DNA from: a virus
Taxonomy: Duplodnaviria; Heunggongvirae; Uroviricota; Caudoviricetes
Direction: 5' to 3' (one strand)
Virus record (IMG/VR): IMGVR_UViG_3300022758_000366
Length of the DNA: 5,030 nt
The notes below the pieces were generated by a model that was not told the DNA's origin, searched no databases, and saw only the letters and a program-made list of their open reading frames with translations. A program made the position numbers and the translations under genes. Positions within the stretch are counted from its first letter, which is position 1; each line of letters starts with the position of its first letter. Below, in pieces: positions 1 through 5,030 of the stretch.

Positions 1-1848
1 CACATGCCGGGACCATTACCGTCTATGAAGGTTCCAGACCAGGTACGCTGAATGATTTTCTCGGTGCCATGACGGAGGATGAGCCCGTCCGGAGGCACTG
101 CGCCGTTTTGAGCTGATGGTGAATGAAGTGGCACGTCATGCCGGAGCGTCATCACAGAGCGCAGCGGCGGCAAAGAAATCCGAAACTGCAGCGGCATCAT
201 CGAAGAACGCGGCGAAAACCTCAGAAACGAATGCAGCTAATAGTGCACAGGCGGCAGCGACCTCACAGACTGCATCAGAAAACTCCGCGACAGCAGCCAA
301 AAATCAGAAACCAACGCGAAAAATAGCGAGACAGCCGCAAAGACGAGCGAAACCAACGCAAAGTCCAGCCAGACGGCAGCGAAAACCAGCGAAACGAATG
401 CCAAAGACAGTGAAGCCACGCAAAAGGTGAGCGAAACAGCGGCTGCGAACTCAGCGAAAGCATCGGCAGCAAGCCAGACGGCAGCTAAAGCAAGCGAAGA
501 TGCAGCCAGAGAGTACGCAAGCCAGGCTGCGGAGCCGTATAAATATGTCTTACAGCCGCTGCCTGATGTGTGGATACCATTTAACGATTCGCTGGATATG
601 ATTACGGGCTTTTCGCCGTCATATAAAAAGATTGTTATTGGTGATGATGAAATAACGATGCCTGGCGACAAGGTTGTTAAGTTTAAACGCGCATCGAAAG
701 CAACCTATATTAATAAATCTGGTGTGCTGACAGTGGCTGCCATTGACGAGCCACGGTTTGAACGTGATGGCCTGCTTATTGAGGGGCAAAGAACGAACTA
801 CATGCTCAATTCGGAAAGCCCTGCCAGTTGGGGGCGATCGTCAAATATGGATGTTCCCGAAACCGGGACGGATAGTTTTGGTTTTACCTATGGAAAGTTT
901 GTCTGTAACGATTCTCTGATTGGGCAAACCTCAGCCATTAATATGGCATCAATTGCTGCAACAAAGTCAGTTGATGTCTCAGGCGATAATAAATACGTGA
1001 CAACCTCATGTCGTTTTAAAACAGAACTGCAGGTAAGGTTGCGTATCCGATTTGATAAATATGACGGTAGCGCAACAACTTTTCTTGGTGATGTGTATAT
1101 TGATACACAAACGCTTGAAATTAATATGACAGGCGGCGCTGCCTCAAGGATTACAGCGAGAGTCAGAAAGGACGAAGTTATCGGATGGATTTTTGCAGAG
1201 GCAACAATTCAGGCAATTGATGGGGAGTTAAAAATAGGTTCTCAGATACAGTATTCTCCTAAGCAGGGCGGGGCAACCGTATCTGGTGACTATATTTATC
1301 TGGCCACCCCACAAGTAGAAAATGGGCCTTGTGTATCATCTTTTATTATATCAGGAACGACGGCGGCGACCCGCGCAAGCGATATAGTCACAGTTCCCAT
1401 TAAGAATAATCTTTATAATCTTCCTTTTACGGTTCTTTGTGAGGTACATAAGAACTGGTATAAAACGCCAATGCAGCACCGCGTGTTTTTGATACCGGCG
1501 GTCATCAAACCGGAGCGGCTATTATTCTTGGCTTCGGTTCTTCAGCAGATTACGACGGATTTCCTTATTGCGATATTGGTGGGTCTAACAGACGGATAAA
1601 CGAAAATGCATCACTTGAAAAAAATGGTTATGGGGATGCGTGTAAAGTCTGATCAGTCTACATGCGCAGTAAGTAACGGGCGTATATCCAGCGAAACAAA
1701 AACCACATGGTCCTGTATTCAGAACACCGCAATTATCCGTATTGGAGGCCAGACTACAGCCGGGTTACGTCATTTATTTGGTCATGTAAGGAATTTCAGA
1801 ATATGGCACAAGGCATTGACTGATGCTCAGGTGGGGGAGTCAATCTAA
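1..1848 (+). CDS. stf: Side tail fibre protein (lambda Stf-like N-proximal part, Ala/Ser/Thr repeat, LamG-like distal domain); 5' end outside window; reading frame broken as sequenced
   Basis: Frame 3 at 3..113 gives HAGTITVYEGSRPGTLNDFLGAMTEDEP. Frame 2 from 83 gives ARPEALRRFELMVNEVARHAGASSQSAAAAKKSETAAASSKNAAKTSETNAA. Both peptides match my recollection of lambda Stf (HAGTITVYEDSQPGTLNDFLCAMTEDDARPEVLRRLELMVEEVAR). Frame 1 from 299 continues KSETNAKNSETAAKTSETNAK to the stop at 1597-1599. A frame-3 stretch 1482..1649 (DTGGHQTGAAIILGFGSSADYDGFPYCDIGG) and frame 1 at 1651..1848 (ending GLRHLFGHVRNFRIWHKALTDAQVGESI) look like one concanavalin/LamG-type domain. The listed ORFs 116..430, 427..1599 and 1606..1848 are pieces of this one gene; the 'M' at 427 is an internal GTG. 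Confidence 0.85.
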
Positions 1849-2156
1849 TGAAAGATTTAACACTCAAATTTCCCGACAGGGCCGACTTTTCGGCCTTTAT
1901 GGAGAGCATTGGCTATTATGATGACGAGTTGATGCAGGATGATATTCTTATTGACGTGATAGGTAACGTGTACAAAGAAACCGGAGAACTGACTGAAGAT
2001 GGCGAACCGGTATGTGTTAAGGAAGACGGATATTTTGTAAACGTGCGCATCATTATGATGCAAAAAAATCGTCAATATTCGATAAATACGCGGTTGTTGT
2101 TGAGCATCAACTTCGTGGCTGGATGTGAGGGAGACAAATGGCTACATCGACAGTAA
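1848..2156 (+). CDS. Hypothetical small acidic protein (102 aa) in the tail-fibre operon
   Basis: The ATG at 1848 overlaps the stf stop as TAATG (translational coupling). The ORF is rich in Asp/Glu and sits between two fibre genes. Its 3' end overlaps the next ORF by 19 nt in another frame. No family recognised. Confidence 0.45.
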   Translation: MKDLTLKFPDRADFSAFMESIGYYDDELMQDDILIDVIGNVYKETGELTEDGEPVCVKEDGYFVNVRIIMMQKNRQYSINTRLLLSINFVAGCEGDKWLHRQ

Positions 2157-2842
2157 TTCCAGGAGATATCACCACGCTAAAGGGAGATGTCAGTAAAACT
2201 AAGGAAGAGATTTCCTCAATTAACGGAAAAGTATCAACGCTTCAGACTGATATGACCAGTGCAAAGCAGGATATCAGCACCAGATACACAAAAACTGAAG
2301 TTGATAATAAGCTGAAAAACAAAGTGGAAGTGAACGATCTGGAAAGTGGTCGTTATGGCGGAGATTTTTATCCACTGACAGGTCGTGAAGCGTTTTATTT
2401 ATGGAATTTGGCCACGACTACAGCGGCGGCAAACCTTTATCTTAATCCTGACCCCGCAATTTCGTCTGTACTGCGGTCAACATCATCTATCCGCTATAAA
2501 CATTCAGTAGAGACAATAGATTCAGAGCACGCCGATCTCATTTTCAGGATGCGCCCTGTGTGGTACAGGTCGCAATGCGAAAATGACAGGCGTGACTGGG
2601 GATTCTATGGATTGATTGCCGAGGAAGTTGGAGAAATTGCCCCTCAGTTTGTTCACTGGCGACCAGCCAACGAAGATGATGCACCGGAAACCATTTCCAG
2701 CAATGGCCTTGTTGCCGAAGGTGTAATGTACGAACGTCTGGTTGTTCCACTGATTCACCATATCCAGAAACTGACTGAAAGAGTTGATGAACTTGAGTCA
2801 GAGTTAAAGTTGTTATCCGTTTCCCGAAGCGATATCGGATAA
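2138..2842 (+). CDS. Tail fibre/spike-type protein with C-terminal intramolecular chaperone auto-processing (peptidase S74-like) domain
   Basis: GAGGGAG lies about 5 nt upstream of the ATG at 2138, and a frame-2 stop sits at 2126-2128 just before it. The N-terminal half is heptad-like (DITTLKGDVSKTKEEISSINGKVSTLQTD). The C-terminal region SSIRYKHSVETIDSEHADLIFRMRPVWYRS...WGFYGLIAEEVGEIAPQFV...GVMYERLVVPLIHHIQKLTERVDELESELKLL follows the consensus of the endosialidase/T5 LtfA chaperone domain (S-x-x-R-x-K ... GxIAQEV..P ... Y..LvPLl..iqeL...LE). Confidence 0.8.
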   Translation: MATSTVIPGDITTLKGDVSKTKEEISSINGKVSTLQTDMTSAKQDISTRYTKTEVDNKLKNKVEVNDLESGRYGGDFYPLTGREAFYLWNLATTTAAANLYLNPDPAISSVLRSTSSIRYKHSVETIDSEHADLIFRMRPVWYRSQCENDRRDWGFYGLIAEEVGEIAPQFVHWRPANEDDAPETISSNGLVAEGVMYERLVVPLIHHIQKLTERVDELESELKLLSVSRSDIG

Positions 2843-2852
2843 AGGAGGAGTA

Positions 2853-3140
2853 ATGGATATAACACCTTTTCTTCATGCGCTTTGTGCTGTGGCTGCGCAG
2901 GTACTGATTGGCCTTTTTACCGGAAACTGGGCTTACGGTGCGATAGCCGGTTGTACGTTCTTCATTGCGCGTGAACACACCCAGGCAGAATATCGCTGGA
3001 TTGAAATGTTTGGGCATGGCAAGAGGATTAACATGCCGTGGTGGGGCGGTTTTGATCCGCGCGTGTGGGATGTGGCAAGCCTGATGGATTTTGCTGTGCC
3101 GGTGGTGGCGTGTCTGCTGATCTGGATGTTGATCCGTTAA
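2853..3140 (+). CDS. Small integral membrane protein (95 aa, about three hydrophobic helices); moron-position gene, possible superinfection-exclusion or lysogenic-conversion function
   Basis: A strong Shine-Dalgarno AGGAGGAG at 2843-2850 precedes the ATG at 2853. Hydrophobic segments are FLHALCAVAAQVLIGLF, WAYGAIAGCTFFIA and VASLMDFAVPVVACLLIWMLI. It lies between the tail-fibre genes and the att site and is followed by a hairpin. No lipobox. Confidence 0.6.
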   Translation: MDITPFLHALCAVAAQVLIGLFTGNWAYGAIAGCTFFIAREHTQAEYRWIEMFGHGKRINMPWWGGFDPRVWDVASLMDFAVPVVACLLIWMLIR

Positions 3141-3155
3141 ATATAAAAAGTAAAA

Positions 3156-3191
3156 AGCCGCAGTAACTTGTCATGATAGGATACTGCGGCT
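3156..3191 (+). terminator. Stem-loop downstream of the membrane-protein gene (possible intrinsic terminator)
   Basis: AGCCGCAGTA (3156-3165) pairs with TACTGCGGCT (3182-3191), a 10-bp stem around a 16-nt loop, 16 nt after the stop at 3138-3140. The following sequence GGTTAACTTTCG is only weakly T-rich. Confidence 0.3.
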
Positions 3192-3485
3192 GGTTAACTT
3201 TCGATAGTGCGAGTATTGAATGATTTCCAGCCGTTACCGATTTTATATAACTGCAGTGGAATTATTCAACACACAGGCAAAACGGAATAAGCTGAGAAAA
3301 AAAGCGTGCTTACCCAATCTGGGGTAAATCACGTCTGAATGACACCTGAAAACAGGTGGTGGCCTCAAGAAGGCTTGGAATATTCTTCTTTAATGTTATG
3401 TAATTTATTGATTTTTCGTGTACGATTTTAAGACATTTATTCCAAGAAAAGTTTTTAACTCTTTGATTTTTCGACTCTGTATCAT

Positions 3486-3547
3486 CGGTCTCGAAAACCG
3501 GAGTGGGGGCAACTCCACCGGGGGTTCAAATCCCCCTCTCTCCGCCA
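3486..3547 (+). other. 3' portion of a tRNA-Ser(CGA) gene (anticodon stem-loop to CCA); not a complete tRNA; att core
   Basis: CGGT-CTCGAAA-ACCGG gives an anticodon loop with anticodon CGA. A long class-II variable arm AGTGGGGGCAACTCCAC follows, then T arm GGGGG-TTCAAAT-CCCCC, acceptor 3' strand TCTCTCC, discriminator G and CCA. Nearly identical to my recollection of E. coli serU from the anticodon stem onward. The upstream sequence TTTTTCGACTCTGTATCAT cannot form the acceptor 5' strand or D arm. Confidence 0.8.
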
Positions 3548-3592
3548 AAATTCAATCACTTACACATCATTAAGTCAGTGACAAAAATCACA

Positions 3593-3628
3593 CTTGGAAT
3601 TACTTGGAATATTTTCTTGGAATATTTT
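3593..3628 (+). repeat. Three tandem direct repeats CTTGGAAT(T/A)TT(TT): putative integrase arm-type binding sites (P' arm)
   Basis: Units at 3593-3602, 3603-3615 and 3616-3628. The same 11-mer recurs at 3374-3384 and inverted at 3435-3446. The repeats overlap the last codons and stop of the int fragment. Confidence 0.55.
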
Positions 3629-3945
3629 CAGGTAACGGGACATCAAGTGTTGGTGAAACTTTAACCTTCCTGTCATAGATTAGCACTTGCCCTTCGGTTT
3701 TGTGACCAGAGAAAAGTTGCTTATCCCGGCTGCTTCCTTCATAGTCTGAAATTCCTTTCGCCTTCAGATCATGAAAGGTGAAGTCGGTTAAAATACCTGA
3801 AATTTTTCCAGCACGATTTCTTGCTTCTACCCACATTTCGTTAAAGCCTTTGTACATATATCGGTTGCCGTATTGATTGCTGATCACATAGGCAGATTTT
3901 GGTAACTGTTTTGCTTTTCGATCGCTGCCTGTAATCGTGGACTCC
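3600..3945 (-). pseudogene. int: Tyrosine integrase (lambda Int family), C-terminal fragment only; N-terminal and core-binding domains absent
   Basis: The C-terminal ~100 residues of the 3600..4199 ORF (AYVISNQYGNRYMYKGFNEMWVEARNRAGKISGILTDFTFHDLKAKGISDYEGSSRDKQLFSGHKTEGQVLIYDRK) align by eye with the lambda Int C-terminus (TFHELRSLSARLYEKQISDKFAQHLLGHKSDTMASQYRDDR), including the His, the GHK His and the Tyr nucleophile. The Arg of H-x-L-R is Lys here. Nothing upstream resembles the first catalytic Arg/Lys region. The 3' end abuts the att site. The boundary at ~3945 is approximate. Confidence 0.7.
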
Positions 3946-4407
3946 ATGCTTTTATCTGTATCTTTATCTGTCGTGACTCGTCGTGACATGTGCGTGACAT
4001 TTCGTGACGCGCCGTGACAATCGCCATTTTGTTCCCGCTTTCTTTCCCTCTCTCGCTGCGCCCTCTTGCGCTCTGCAGGAGATTTTGCGGTTTGCGAAAT
4101 ATTGCCGTTGTCCTCTTTAAGCACCTGGCGTTTTTCCCATCCAGTGATTAAATCACCATCAAGTACCCGCCCCTGCATCGTCTGCAAAATTTGAATCAAT
4201 TACCTCTTCTGTCACGTCGAGCGCACTTGCCAAATCTTCTGTCGTGACATCAATGTGACCTCGCGTGACATTTCGTGACGCGCTCACCAGGAGGTGGATA
4301 TACACTGCCATCACTGTTGCAATTGGCTGCCCTGACACCCTGGCAATTGTTCGCCACTTAGGGTCATTTGGCATGTCATGCCATAATCTGAGCCAGGCGT
4401 TAGCCAT
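3946..4407 (-). CDS. Putative phage replication initiator (YdaU/DUF1376-like N-terminus, from memory), frameshifted and continuous with the int fragment
   Basis: ATG at 4407 with SD GAGGTGAG. The N-terminus MANAWLRLWHDMPNDPKWRTIARVSGQPIATVMAVYIHLL resembles the W..Y....DPK N-terminal motif I recall for DUF1376/YdaU-like initiators. A frame change lies near 4160-4200, after which the sequence continues as QGRVLDGDLITGWEKRQ...ERKRAQRERERK. Iteron-like repeats are embedded in the coding sequence. Sits immediately downstream of a YdaT-like gene, as in the Rac ydaS-ydaT-ydaU-ydaV module. The 3' boundary is approximate. Confidence 0.45.
3972..4279. repeat. Iteron-like CGTGAC direct repeats with ~10-11 bp phasing (putative replication origin inside the initiator gene)
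   Basis: CGTGAC starts at 3972, 3982, 3993, 4003 and 4013, then at 4243, 4254 (TGTGAC), 4264 and 4274, with an inverted GTCACG at 4211-4216. An identical 21-mer GCGTGACATTTCGTGACGCGC occurs at 3992-4012 and 4263-4283. An AT-rich block with TATCTG repeats lies at 3948-3970. Confidence 0.55.
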
Positions 4408-4479: not shown

Positions 4480-4904
4480 TCAATGCACTGCCACAGCATT
4501 TCCTGCCGGGCCACCACGGTTCATCTGATTGAAACCGGCGATTGCCACTGCGACAAAATCATCGGCGTCTCTCACCAGTCGCTCCCGCGTCTCCACCAGC
4601 TCCCGAAATAAGCTGAACTGTGGCTACGCATTCTGGCCACCAGCAAAGGTGGCATTGCCTTTTCGATCGCTGGTACAACGCCTGAATTTTTTCAACTGCA
4701 TCAGGGGTGTCTTTCTCTACCCAGCGGAAAATTTTCTGGGTATTGCGAGCCAGGGCTTCCGGATGGCTGTCGTCGTACAGTTCAGGAAACGTCATACCCA
4801 ACTCAAAATAAGCCTGGGTTATTCCAGCTGCCGGAACTTTTTTCGCCATCAGGACGCGCCCAGGCATTCATCGCCATGCGGATGTGTTCATGCTTGATTT
4901 TCAT
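4480..4904 (-). CDS. YdaT-like protein (Rac prophage ydaT family, assignment from memory), interrupted by two frame changes as sequenced
   Basis: ATG at 4904-4902 is preceded by AAGGGGGG. The frame gives MKIKHEHIRMAMNAWARPDGEK, then after the T6 run at 4838-4843 a second frame gives VPAAGITQAYFELGMTFPELYDDSHPEALARNTQKIFRWVEKDTPDAVEKIQALYQRS, and a third frame (ELVETRERLVRDADDFVAVAIAGFNQMNRGGPAGNAVAVH) ends at the stop 4480-4482 just before the next gene's RBS. Removing two single-base insertions gives 141 codons, which matches my recollection that YdaT is 140 aa. Confidence 0.45.
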
Positions 4905-5030
4905 GAATCCCCCCTTGGTTAGAAGGCGGATTATGATCAGAACCGGGAATGACAACCGTCGGTATGTGTAACTCATATTTGAGCGCCCCCGGCAGTGACT
5001 GCCTGAATTAGCAACGCCCATTTCCACGGC

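What the first reader, a model, noticed from the sequence alone, without database searches (positions are those of the whole stretch)
3486..3547. Unsplit attP: tRNA-Ser 3' half with phage DNA on both flanks
Only tRNA positions from about 28 to CCA are present, and the 5' flank is phage b-region/tail DNA rather than the tRNA 5' half. With int on the other side, this is the attP configuration, not an attL/attR host junction. The element is therefore not integrated through this site. The window is from a free phage or phage-plasmid genome, a tandem-prophage junction, or a relic inserted by another route.
Basis: partly seen in the sequence, partly recalled or inferred. Interest (0 to 1): 0.5.

Follow-up and report, generated by a model that had tools for sequence, protein, structure and literature searches.

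The report
Ordinary phage attP at tRNA-Ser (serU)
The 62-base tRNA-Ser fragment is the core of a textbook lambda-type phage attachment site (attP) caught un-recombined on a short metagenome contig, which is real but ordinary and already well understood.

Summary
Window 3486-3547 is the last 62 nt (position 29 to CCA) of E. coli serU, tRNA-Ser(CGA). No 5' half is present. The left flank is the tail-fibre end of serU-integrating lambdoid prophages, and the right flank is the 3' end of their integrase gene. E. coli lysogens carry the same two arms split into attL and attR, so this is the P-core-P' (attP) arrangement.

The anatomy is classical. There are five CTTGGAAT arm-type repeats, two on the left and three in tandem on the right. 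Two IHF-consensus sites lie on the left. A compensatory polymorphism places the crossover in the anticodon stem-loop.

The same junction occurs in 4 other metagenome or viral contigs and in 10 of 5,426 complete E. coli chromosomes. In the two chromosomes examined it joins two tandem prophages.

The window is a whole 5,030-nt JGI contig, so free phage DNA and a tandem array cannot be separated.

They are joined, through a 9-nt microhomology, to an inverted replication module. That join is found nowhere else. The contig also carries homopolymer indels, so an amplification or sequencing chimera is likely. Novelty: already known.

The parts
1..1848 (+). 3' part of the side tail-fibre gene (791-793 aa in relatives). 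Here it is broken into several ORFs by single-base homopolymer indels.
   Evidence: 95-97% to the 'prophage tail fiber N-terminal domain-containing protein' genes of L001/L002. Indels at 1469 and 1618 lie in homopolymers.
1848..2156 (+). Small conserved ORF of unknown function (93 aa in relatives). Its C-terminus is altered by a homopolymer indel at 2054.
   Evidence: no Pfam hit
2138..2842 (+). 234-aa tail-fibre-domain protein with a Peptidase_S74 (endosialidase chaperone) domain.
   Evidence: Pfam PF13884, E 7e-6. The identical protein lies next to the serU attR in many E. coli genomes.
2853..3140 (+). 95-aa ORF, the last gene before the attachment site. Function unknown.
   Evidence: no Pfam hit
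3374..3381 (+). Arm-type repeat CTTGGAAT (P1-like), 112 nt left of the core.
   Evidence: Five exact copies, all within 3374-3623, against 0.21 expected and 0/200 shuffles. The position is conserved in every attP-like and attR locus.
3401..3413 (-). IHF-consensus match (WATCAANNNNTTR), H1-like.
   Evidence: 2 matches against 0.43 expected; 19/200 shuffles reach 2, so weak alone; conserved position
3439..3446 (-). Arm-type repeat CTTGGAAT in inverted orientation (P2-like), 47 nt left of the core.
3456..3468 (-). IHF-consensus match, H2-like, 30 nt left of the core.
3486..3547 (+). attP common core: the 3' 62 nt of serU tRNA-Ser(CGA), from position 29 to CCA. It covers the anticodon stem-loop, variable arm, T arm and the 3' strand of the acceptor stem.
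   Evidence: no complete tRNA
3486..3504 (+). Interval that must contain the strand-exchange point: anticodon stem CGGT / loop CTCGAAA / stem ACCGG, plus AGT.
   Evidence: The phage-type G3505/C3516 pair is in attL, and the host-type A/T pair is in attR, of the same genomes (EC21GDE043: L023 vs L020; M15: L025 vs L026). Placing the exchange in the 7-nt loop itself is inference from known anticodon-class sites.
3505..3516 (+). Compensatory pair in the variable-arm stem: G3505-C3516 in the phage version, A-T in K-12 attB and in all attR copies.
3593..3623 (+). Three tandem arm-type repeats CTTGGAAT (P'1-P'3-like) at 3593, 3603 and 3616. They overlap the int stop codon.
   Evidence: present in attL of lysogens and absent from attB
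3600..3959 (-). 3' end of the tyrosine integrase gene (codons 223-341 of 341, plus the stop codon), with one homopolymer frameshift at 3914. The arm-binding domain, the core-binding domain and the first part of the catalytic domain are missing.
   Evidence: 99.8% to L006; intact 341-aa ORFs in L005, L006, L007 and L024. Pfam Phage_integrase covers residues 183-317 of the intact protein, and the fragment gets no Pfam hit.
3951..3959 (.). Breakpoint: 9-nt microhomology TTTATCTGT joining int to an inverted O-like gene.
   Evidence: Parent sequences compared. The two breakpoints lie 7.1 kb apart and on opposite strands in L006. The join is found nowhere else.
3951..4407 (-). First ~152 codons of a phage replisome-organizer (lambda O-like) gene, with a homopolymer frameshift at 4190. 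It contains CGTGAC iteron-like repeats at 3972-4018 and 4211-4279.
   Evidence: 99% to L006 16553-16098 and 99.4% to L021; repeats
4480..4904 (-). ydaT-family (cII-position) gene, frameshifted by homopolymer indels.
   Evidence: Pfam YdaT_toxin
4891..5030 (-). 3' part of a Cro/CI-family regulator gene, running off the contig end.
   Evidence: approximate coordinates, mapped from L006

Best explanation
Window 3374-3623 is a complete lambda-type attP of a lambdoid coliphage family that integrates into serU.

How it works. The phage carries a copy of the 3' 62 nt of the tRNA gene. A heterobivalent tyrosine integrase (341 aa, lambda-Int-like MGRRR...LPPN N-terminus) would bind the CTTGGAAT arm sites: two in the P arm and three in tandem in the P' arm. 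IHF would bend the P arm. The integrase would then exchange strands within the anticodon stem-loop of serU. Integration gives mtfA-serU(host 5' part + phage 3' part)-int ... tail fibre-(displaced host 3' fragment)-zinT side. The tRNA therefore stays intact but takes on the phage's G-C variable-arm pair.

What is shown and what is inferred. Shown: the arms, the core, the repeats, the split of the arms between attL and attR in genomes, and the crossover interval 3486-3504. Inferred: which protein binds which site, and the exact 7-nt overlap.

Origin of this contig. In the window the site is un-recombined. I consider it most likely that the contig sampled phage DNA not flanked by host DNA (virion, excised circle or replicating genome) in a metagenome. 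On that reading the int|O join at 3951-3959 is a library or amplification chimera and not biology. The confidence given is for this full statement. The identification as an attP-type junction of a serU phage stands on its own at about 0.95.
For: - Core and arms.
- Arms split into attL and attR in single lysogens, and none present in attB.
- CTTGGAAT five times, only within 3374-3623 (expected 0.21).
- Positions conserved in six independent attP-like loci.
- Crossover mapping by the G/C versus A/T pair within the same genomes.
- Intact int next to the same attP in viral contig L007.
- Three further metagenome contigs with the same junction.
- Distant relatives: Klebsiella phage KpF5 matches the core (window 3485-3567 at KpF5 23866-23949), 107 nt from a 59%-identical integrase gene at 24056-25033. 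P7641 likewise pairs a core match with a ~59% integrase. Salmonella phage ST64B has a ~59% integrase, but its core was not checked..
- Artefact reading of the int|O join: it is inverted, skips 7.1 kb and has a 9-nt microhomology. It is unique among all collections searched. Almost every single-base indel against close relatives sits in a homopolymer, as in pyrosequencing-type data. Lasken & Stockwell 2007 (PMC1855051) report that more than 85% of MDA chimeras are inverted with intervening deletions and that over 70% have 2-21 nt of complementarity.
Against: - The contig is only 5,030 nt and is the whole record. No cos ends, circularity, coverage or host flanks can be inspected, and there is no terminal overlap.
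- The identical junction exists in 10 of 5,426 finished E. coli chromosomes. Both of those examined are tandem-prophage joints, and the core polymorphism cannot tell the two origins apart.
- Whether the sample was amplified or pyrosequenced is unknown.
- If the int|O join is real, the DNA cannot be a viable phage.
- No phage record examined here shows this int in the attP arrangement. Of the two phage records that carry this int, the one examined is a prophage region with host flanks.
Confidence: 0.5

Rival explanations
1. Tandem-prophage junction. The contig comes from an E. coli chromosome carrying two lambdoid prophages head-to-tail at serU (serU-intA...tailA-core-intB...tailB-core-zinT). 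The window spans tailA-core-intB. On this reading the downstream, older prophage B has suffered a real inversion or illegitimate recombination between int and O and is defective.
For: - The same junction (97.7-99.4% over 511 nt) is present in finished chromosomes.
- In strain M15 the full array was traced from mtfA-serU to zinT. Strain 2013C-4991 shows tail-end genes, the core, then int and early genes, although its outer ends were not traced.
- Phage-plus-island tandems at serU also exist (L013, L015-L017).
- Tandem arrays at tDNAs are common (125 of 3,919 islands in Islander, PMC4383910).
- A broken int and a broken O are easier to tolerate in a resident prophage than in a free phage.
Against: - Only 10 of 5,426 complete genomes have the junction, against 2,344 that match the int arm, so tandems are rare.
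- The int|O join is a singleton in every collection searched.
- A microhomology-mediated inversion needs two simultaneous illegitimate joins.
- The contig shows a sequencing-error signature.
Confidence: 0.35
2. Assembly chimera. A single lysogen's attR (tail arm-core) and attL (core-int arm) were wrongly joined through the 62-nt repeat.
For: The core is a perfect or near-perfect 62-nt repeat in every lysogen, and the contig is short and error-prone.
Against: - A switch from attR to attL would give the observed G3505/C3516 variant only if it fell in the first 19 of the 62 nt; elsewhere it would leave A/T or a hybrid. The window and all four other attP-like contigs carry G/C.
- Long-read finished chromosomes hold the junction as well.
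- 62 nt is shorter than most read lengths.
Confidence: 0.07
3. Relic. The core is a fossil att fragment carried passively in the b region of a phage that uses another integrase and site.
For: Phages ev099 and mEp332 carry the same tail arm plus core. The integrase gene of ev099 lies about 2.4 kb further on, and the mEp332 record ends before any int gene.
Against: In those phages the core is the host-type A/T variant, followed by 278 nt of host DNA from downstream of serU. That is a fossil attR. In the window the core is the phage-type variant and is followed at once by the cognate P' arm and int 3' end, with all five arm repeats in place.
Confidence: 0.04
4. Phage-plasmid: the attP sits on an extrachromosomal prophage replicon.
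For: None beyond the absence of host flanks in the window.
Against: No PLSDB plasmid holds the junction. The best plasmid hit covers only the core plus int on a 439-kb record. No partition or plasmid-replication genes are present in the window. All relatives examined are integrated or are lambdoid phages.
Confidence: 0.02

Closest known systems
Bacteriophage lambda attP (P1-H1-P2-X/F-H2-core-H'-P'1-P'2-P'3, next to int)
   Same: Same order of parts: late or b region, then a P arm with two arm-type repeats and IHF-consensus sites, then the core, then a P' arm with three tandem arm-type repeats, then int transcribed towards the site. The integrase N-terminus is of the lambda type (MGRRR...LPPN). 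The lambda layout is taken from my own knowledge.
   Different: The core is 62 nt of a tRNA gene, not a 15-nt sequence between gal and bio. The arm repeat is CTTGGAAT, not the lambda arm-site sequence. No H' or Xis sites were identified. Binding was not tested.
Anticodon-loop class of tDNA integration sites (Williams 2002; class 'A' in Islander, PMC4383910)
   Same: The identity block runs from the anticodon stem to the 3' end of the tRNA gene. The symmetric anticodon stem flanks a 7-nt loop. Integration regenerates the tRNA and leaves a displaced 3' fragment. The crossover is mapped here to the 19 nt that include the anticodon stem-loop.
   Different: Nothing of substance. The long variable arm of tRNA-Ser makes the block 62 nt long.
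serU lambdoid prophages of E. coli (e.g. the serU prophages of ST131 EC958 and of STEC O145:H28, PMC7067040), and tandem arrays such as those in strains M15 and 2013C-4991
   Same: Same integrase arm (99-99.8%), same tail arm (95-99%) and same core variant. The tandem joints have the identical P-core-P' sequence.
   Different: In those genomes int is full length and the cro-ydaT-O module lies on the opposite strand, about 7 kb away. Here int is cut at codon 223 and joined to the inverted O gene.
Klebsiella phages KpF5/P7641 and Salmonella phage ST64B
   Same: Sequenced phage genomes with integrases ~59% identical to this one. In KpF5 an 84-nt match to the same tRNA-Ser core lies about 107 nt from the integrase gene, so the attP is un-split in a free phage genome. 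P7641 also pairs a core match with its integrase.
   Different: Different hosts, and the arms are not alignable by megablast. Their arm repeats were not examined. The core of ST64B was not checked here.
MDA/454 inverted chimeras (Lasken & Stockwell 2007, PMC1855051)
   Same: The int|O join is inverted, skips 7.1 kb of the parental map and has a 9-nt microhomology. The contig's single-base indels sit almost entirely in homopolymers.
   Different: The library method of the source sample is unknown. A real illegitimate recombination would look the same in a single contig.

Membership tests
Lambda-type attP overlapping a tRNA gene (anticodon-loop class) | Block of identity with the target tRNA gene running from the anticodon stem to the 3' end | tested here: met
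   3486-3547 equals serU positions 29-90: 62/62 to serU of lysogens and 60/62 to K-12
Lambda-type attP overlapping a tRNA gene (anticodon-loop class) | Non-host (element) DNA on both sides of the core | tested here: met
   The left side is the tail-fibre arm of attR and the right side is the int arm of attL. Neither matches the K-12 flanks of serU.
Lambda-type attP overlapping a tRNA gene (anticodon-loop class) | Adjacent tyrosine integrase gene | tested here: inconclusive
   In the window only codons 223-341 are present, and the fragment has no Pfam hit. The intact 341-aa gene (Phage_integrase, Phage_int_M) sits at the same place in L005, L006, L007 and L024.
Lambda-type attP overlapping a tRNA gene (anticodon-loop class) | Arm-type repeats on both arms | tested here: met
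   CTTGGAAT five times, at -112(+), -47(-), +107, +117 and +130 relative to the core start. None occurs elsewhere in 5 kb (expected 0.21; 0/200 shuffles). Conserved in six loci. Binding by Int was not tested.
Lambda-type attP overlapping a tRNA gene (anticodon-loop class) | IHF sites in the arms | tested here: inconclusive
   Two consensus matches in the P arm (3401-3413, 3456-3468). They are positionally conserved, but 19/200 shuffles give two or more matches.
Lambda-type attP overlapping a tRNA gene (anticodon-loop class) | Recombination products (attL, attR) exist with the arms separated and the tRNA regenerated | tested here: met
   EC21GDE043 has attL (L023) and attR (L020). M15 has attL, the tandem joint and attR. 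The serU gene is annotated intact.
Lambda-type attP overlapping a tRNA gene (anticodon-loop class) | Crossover in the anticodon loop | tested here: inconclusive
   Natural polymorphism confines the crossover to 3486-3504, which contains the stem-loop. The exact 7-nt overlap was not resolved.
Lambda-type attP overlapping a tRNA gene (anticodon-loop class) | Int/IHF-dependent recombination with attB | not testable with these tools
   Requires in vitro or in vivo recombination assays.
Functional tRNA gene | Complete cloverleaf including the 5' half | tested here: not met
   ARAGORN finds 0 genes. Rfam gives only sub-threshold partial matches to the T-arm and acceptor end.
Tandem prophage array junction | Host-flanked attL upstream and attR downstream on the same replicon | not testable with these tools
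   The window is the entire 5,030-nt contig. The feature is met in the relative M15.
Free phage genome | Contig closes on itself or ends at cos/pac, with no host DNA | tested here: inconclusive
   There is no host DNA in 5 kb, but also no terminal overlap, and the contig is far shorter than a genome.
Phage-plasmid | Plasmid maintenance genes, or a match to a plasmid replicon that carries the junction | tested here: not met
   No PLSDB record spans the junction, and there are no such genes in the window.
MDA-type inverted chimera (for the int|O join only) | Inverted orientation, an intervening deletion of a few kb, and 2-21 nt of junction complementarity | tested here: met
   The strand flips at L006 9413 -> 16553 (7.1 kb apart) with the 9-nt TTTATCTGT.
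MDA-type inverted chimera (for the int|O join only) | The library was made by MDA, and the junction is supported by few reads | not testable with these tools
   No sample metadata or reads are available.

The most novel reading that the evidence does not exclude
The int|O join is real. It would be a one-off, microhomology-mediated inversion or template switch that starts right beside the iteron cluster of the phage replication origin (CGTGAC repeats at 3972-4018). It would break both int and O and so lock a serU prophage in place, probably the older member of a tandem pair. That would be a snapshot of how a lambdoid prophage becomes cryptic through a replication-origin-associated rearrangement. 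A milder novelty is also possible: this very widespread serU integrase family has no sequenced free phage with this attP, so the attP-bearing metagenome contigs may be the only sign that it is still active.
Probability: 0.3. Interest if true: 0.25.

Novelty: already known. Interest (0 to 1): 0.12.

Why it matters
It matters little beyond correct annotation. The site is a clean, well-resolved example of Campbell-type integration into a tRNA gene, with the arms, the core and the crossover interval all readable from natural variation.

It shows that the serU gene in genomes carrying this prophage (the int arm is matched in 2,344 of 5,426 complete E. coli genomes) ends in phage-derived sequence with a compensatory G-C pair. 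It gives a practical marker: the tail arm-core-int arm junction, with G3505/C3516, detects excised phage or tandem lysogens in sequence data.

It is also a warning. Short, error-prone metagenome contigs can carry inverted chimeric joins that mimic gene truncations.

Tried and rejected
1. Finding the source contig, for circularity, cos ends and host flanks:
- Exact-protein look-ups of window ORFs failed.
- The homology search showed that the chimeric ORF is a singleton from a JGI contig of exactly 5,030 nt, so the window is the whole contig.
- Pattern scans of genome contigs found nothing. The viral and metagenome scans returned related contigs but not the source.

2. My first attP pattern had 64 Ns where 62 were needed, and it wasted one viral scan.

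3. The phage-plasmid idea was rejected: no plasmid holds the junction.

4. The idea that the integrase is a pseudogene in E. coli, because PGAP annotates it 'frameshifted', was rejected: the 341-aa ORF is intact in L005, L006 and L024.

5. The idea that the frameshifts in the tail-fibre, int, O and ydaT genes mean a decaying prophage was rejected: almost all single-base indels against near-identical relatives are in homopolymers.

6. I first concluded that no phage record carries this integrase. tblastn corrected this by finding two records, and the one inspected is a prophage region with mtfA, serU and ybt host genes, which is an attL.

7. Rfam gave only sub-threshold partial hits to the tRNA fragment.

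8. I looked for 'serU' in the O157 prophage-pool paper, but the apparent hit was the word 'serum'.

9. The core polymorphism cannot separate free attP from a tandem joint, because both carry G/C.

Full report
OBSERVATION

The window holds no complete tRNA (ARAGORN). Window 3486-3959 aligns at 99.8% to the serU-integrase junction of E. coli AHB10 (L006 8939-9413). The tRNA-Ser gene there is annotated at L006 8911-9000. Identity therefore begins at tRNA position 29 and runs to the CCA at 3545-3547. The fragment is 62 nt with the anticodon CGA at 3492-3494. It is 62/62 identical to serU of lysogens and 60/62 identical to K-12 serU.

FLANKS

The left side (1-3485) is the end of a lambdoid late region. 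It holds a side tail-fibre gene, a small ORF, a 234-aa tail-fibre-domain protein with a Peptidase_S74 domain and a 95-aa ORF, followed by about 350 nt of non-coding DNA. This region is 95-97% identical to prophages of many E. coli genomes. There the match stops at the end of the tRNA fragment, and host genes (zinT, msrQP) follow. That arrangement is attR.

The right side (3548-3959) is 99-99.8% identical to the 3' end of a tyrosine integrase gene. In E. coli that gene lies immediately downstream of an intact serU next to mtfA. That arrangement is attL. Some match to this arm is found in 2,344 of 5,426 complete genomes.

ANATOMY AND MECHANISM

The octamer CTTGGAAT occurs five times in the window, all between 3374 and 3623. 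The expected count is 0.21, and no shuffle out of 200 reaches five. One direct and one inverted copy lie in the left arm, at -112 and -47 from the core start. Three tandem copies lie in the right arm, at +107, +117 and +130, and overlap the int stop codon.

Two IHF-consensus matches lie between the left-arm repeats and the core. They are weak on their own. All of these positions are identical in the other attP-like loci. In lysogens they are split exactly, with two repeats plus the IHF matches in attR and three repeats in attL. K-12 attB has no repeats.

The intact integrase is 341 aa and hits Phage_integrase, Phage_int_M and the SAM-like domains. It has a lambda-Int-like N-terminus, which fits a heterobivalent enzyme that uses arm sites. 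That last point is inference.

A natural marker maps the crossover. The phage version of the core has G3505 and C3516, which form a compensatory pair in the variable-arm stem. K-12 attB has A and T at those positions. Within single genomes, attL carries G/C and attR carries A/T (EC21GDE043: L023 vs L020; M15: L025 vs L026). Strand exchange therefore lies in 3486-3504. That interval is the anticodon stem-loop: CGGT, CTCGAAA, ACCGG.

This is the classical anticodon-centred class of tDNA sites (Islander paper, PMC4383910). Integration regenerates serU with a phage-derived 3' part and displaces the host 3' fragment to the far end of the prophage.

WHERE SUCH A JUNCTION OCCURS

The same junction, found by exact arms around a 60-64-nt gap, is present in several other places:
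- One IMG/VR contig (L007, 10.7 kb) carries tail fibre, core, intact int and early-left ORFs.
- Three metagenome contigs (L008-L010) carry it as well.
- Ten of 5,426 complete E. coli chromosomes hold it.

In strain M15 I traced the whole array. It runs mtfA-serU-int, then prophage A (about 41 kb), tail fibre, core, int, then prophage B (about 43 kb), tail fibre, core, zinT. Strain 2013C-4991 shows the same kind of joint locally. Phage-plus-island tandems at serU also exist (L013, L015-L017).

serU is a documented lambdoid prophage locus (PMC7067040). Tandem integration using an existing att site is also documented for other coliphages (PMC2669165).

No plasmid holds the junction. Among phage records, the identical integrase is found in only two. 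The one inspected is a prophage region with host flanks. Distant relatives show the same arrangement in genuine phage genomes: in Klebsiella phage KpF5 a match to the same tRNA-Ser core lies about 107 nt from a 59%-identical integrase gene.

Only codons 223-341 of int are present. At 3951-3959 the sequence switches, through the 9-nt microhomology TTTATCTGT, to the first ~152 codons of a lambda-O-like replisome-organizer gene. The ydaT gene and a cro-family gene follow, all on the minus strand.

In normal serU prophages this module lies 7.1 kb away on the opposite strand (L006). A 99.4%-identical copy also sits in a prophage at the potBCD locus, next to potC. The join is therefore an inversion-type junction.

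It is unique. I found no other instance in complete E. coli genomes, viral contigs or species-representative genomes. In the 15-billion-protein collection the chimeric ORF is a singleton.

That look-up also showed that the ORF's only contig is a JGI contig of exactly 5,030 nt. The window is thus the entire contig, and no further context exists.

Almost every single-base indel against near-identical relatives lies in a homopolymer: 6 in the O-ydaT-cro part, 1 in int and 3 clear ones in the tail region. The many 'frameshifts' are therefore sequencing errors and not decay.

An inverted join that skips a few kb and has short microhomology is the signature of MDA chimeras (Lasken & Stockwell 2007, PMC1855051). 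I cannot verify how the library was made. A private real rearrangement would look the same.

WEIGHING THE ORIGINS

That the site is an attP-type junction of a serU lambdoid phage is very secure (about 0.95). Which molecule it came from is not decidable from 5 kb.

- Free, excised or packaged phage DNA with a chimeric right end: I put this at about 0.5. The error and chimera signature fits it, and several metagenome and viral contigs carry the same junction with intact int.
- A chromosomal tandem joint whose downstream prophage is truly rearranged: about 0.35. Such joints are documented in finished genomes, and a broken int and O are easier to tolerate there.
- Mis-assembly through the 62-nt repeat: unlikely, about 0.07. 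The window and the four related contigs all carry the G/C variant, which a random switch inside the repeat would give only about a third of the time. Finished long-read chromosomes also show the junction.
- Relic: rejected. The relic copies in phages ev099 and mEp332 are fossil attR sites with the host-type core plus 278 nt of host DNA, which differs from the window.
- Phage-plasmid: rejected for lack of any support.

VERDICT

The finding is real and correctly read, but ordinary. It is a textbook lambda-type attP at a tRNA gene, of a prophage family that is very common in E. coli. Novelty: already known. Interest is low.

Noticed in passing
window 3951-3959 (parents: L006 9405-9413 and 16545-16553): The int gene is cut at codon 223 and joined, through the 9-nt microhomology TTTATCTGT, to an inverted O-like gene that normally lies 7.1 kb away on the other strand. 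The join is unique in every collection searched. It is either a library chimera or a private rearrangement.
   Followed up: yes
window 1469, 1618, 2054, 3914, 4190, 4432, 4605, 4674, 4838, 4986: Almost all single-base indels against near-identical relatives fall in homopolymer runs of 2-7 nt. The apparent frameshifts in the tail-fibre, int, O and ydaT genes are therefore sequencing errors of a low-coverage contig and not pseudogenisation.
   Followed up: yes
window 3972-4018 and 4211-4279: Two clusters of CGTGAC(A) repeats lie inside the O-like gene: five direct copies about 10 nt apart, then three direct copies plus one inverted copy. They look like origin iterons. The int|O breakpoint lies immediately beside the first cluster.
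   Followed up: partly
L003 (phage ev099) 4087-4426; L004 (phage mEp332) 4089-4426: These sequenced phage genomes carry the same tail arm followed by the host-type serU core and 278 nt of E. coli chromosomal DNA from downstream of serU. This is a fossil attR inside the b region. The integrase gene of ev099 lies about 2.4 kb further on.
   Followed up: partly
L013, L015, L016, L017 at ~11350-11450: In these E. coli genomes the tail arm and the host-type A/T core are followed not by zinT-side DNA but by another mobile element (DUF6387, AlpA, H-NS-like and RepL-like genes). This is a phage-plus-island tandem at serU.
   Followed up: no
L005 6028-7078, L006 9028-10078, L023 11190-12240, L024 20286-21336, L027 12287-13337: RefSeq annotates the serU integrase as 'frameshifted', but the 341-aa ORF is intact in the three copies translated (L005, L006, L024). 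The annotated pseudogene extends 25 nt past the real stop codon, so the label looks like a model-length artefact.
   Followed up: partly
window 3505 and 3516: The phage copy of the tRNA 3' part has a compensatory G-C pair in the variable-arm stem where K-12 has A-T. Every lysogen therefore expresses a slightly different tRNA-Ser(CGA).
   Followed up: partly
window 3493-3544, minus strand: The tRNA fragment gives a sub-threshold Rfam hit to 'Plastid-psbl-rps4 3UTR RNA' (38.6 bits against a gathering score of 68) on the antisense strand. The match covers the same T-arm and acceptor stretch, so it is most likely a spurious match to tRNA-like sequence.
   Followed up: no
window 3150-3195: The inverted repeat GCCGCAGTA...TACTGCGGC lies just after the last late ORF. 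The window lacks one GGCT unit (at 3187) that L002 has. It could be a terminator-like hairpin, but it was not picked up by the consensus scan.
   Followed up: no
window 1-414 vs L001/L002/L007: The start of the contig lies in a repetitive, alanine- and serine-rich part of the tail-fibre gene that aligns to several offsets in relatives. This probably explains why the assembly broke there.
   Followed up: no
L021 12001-13077 (E. coli GPT24-02): The cro-ydaT-O module closest to the window (99.4%) sits in a prophage at the potBCD locus, next to potC, with a different integrase. The early-right module is therefore exchanged between lambdoid prophages at different chromosomal sites.
   Followed up: partly
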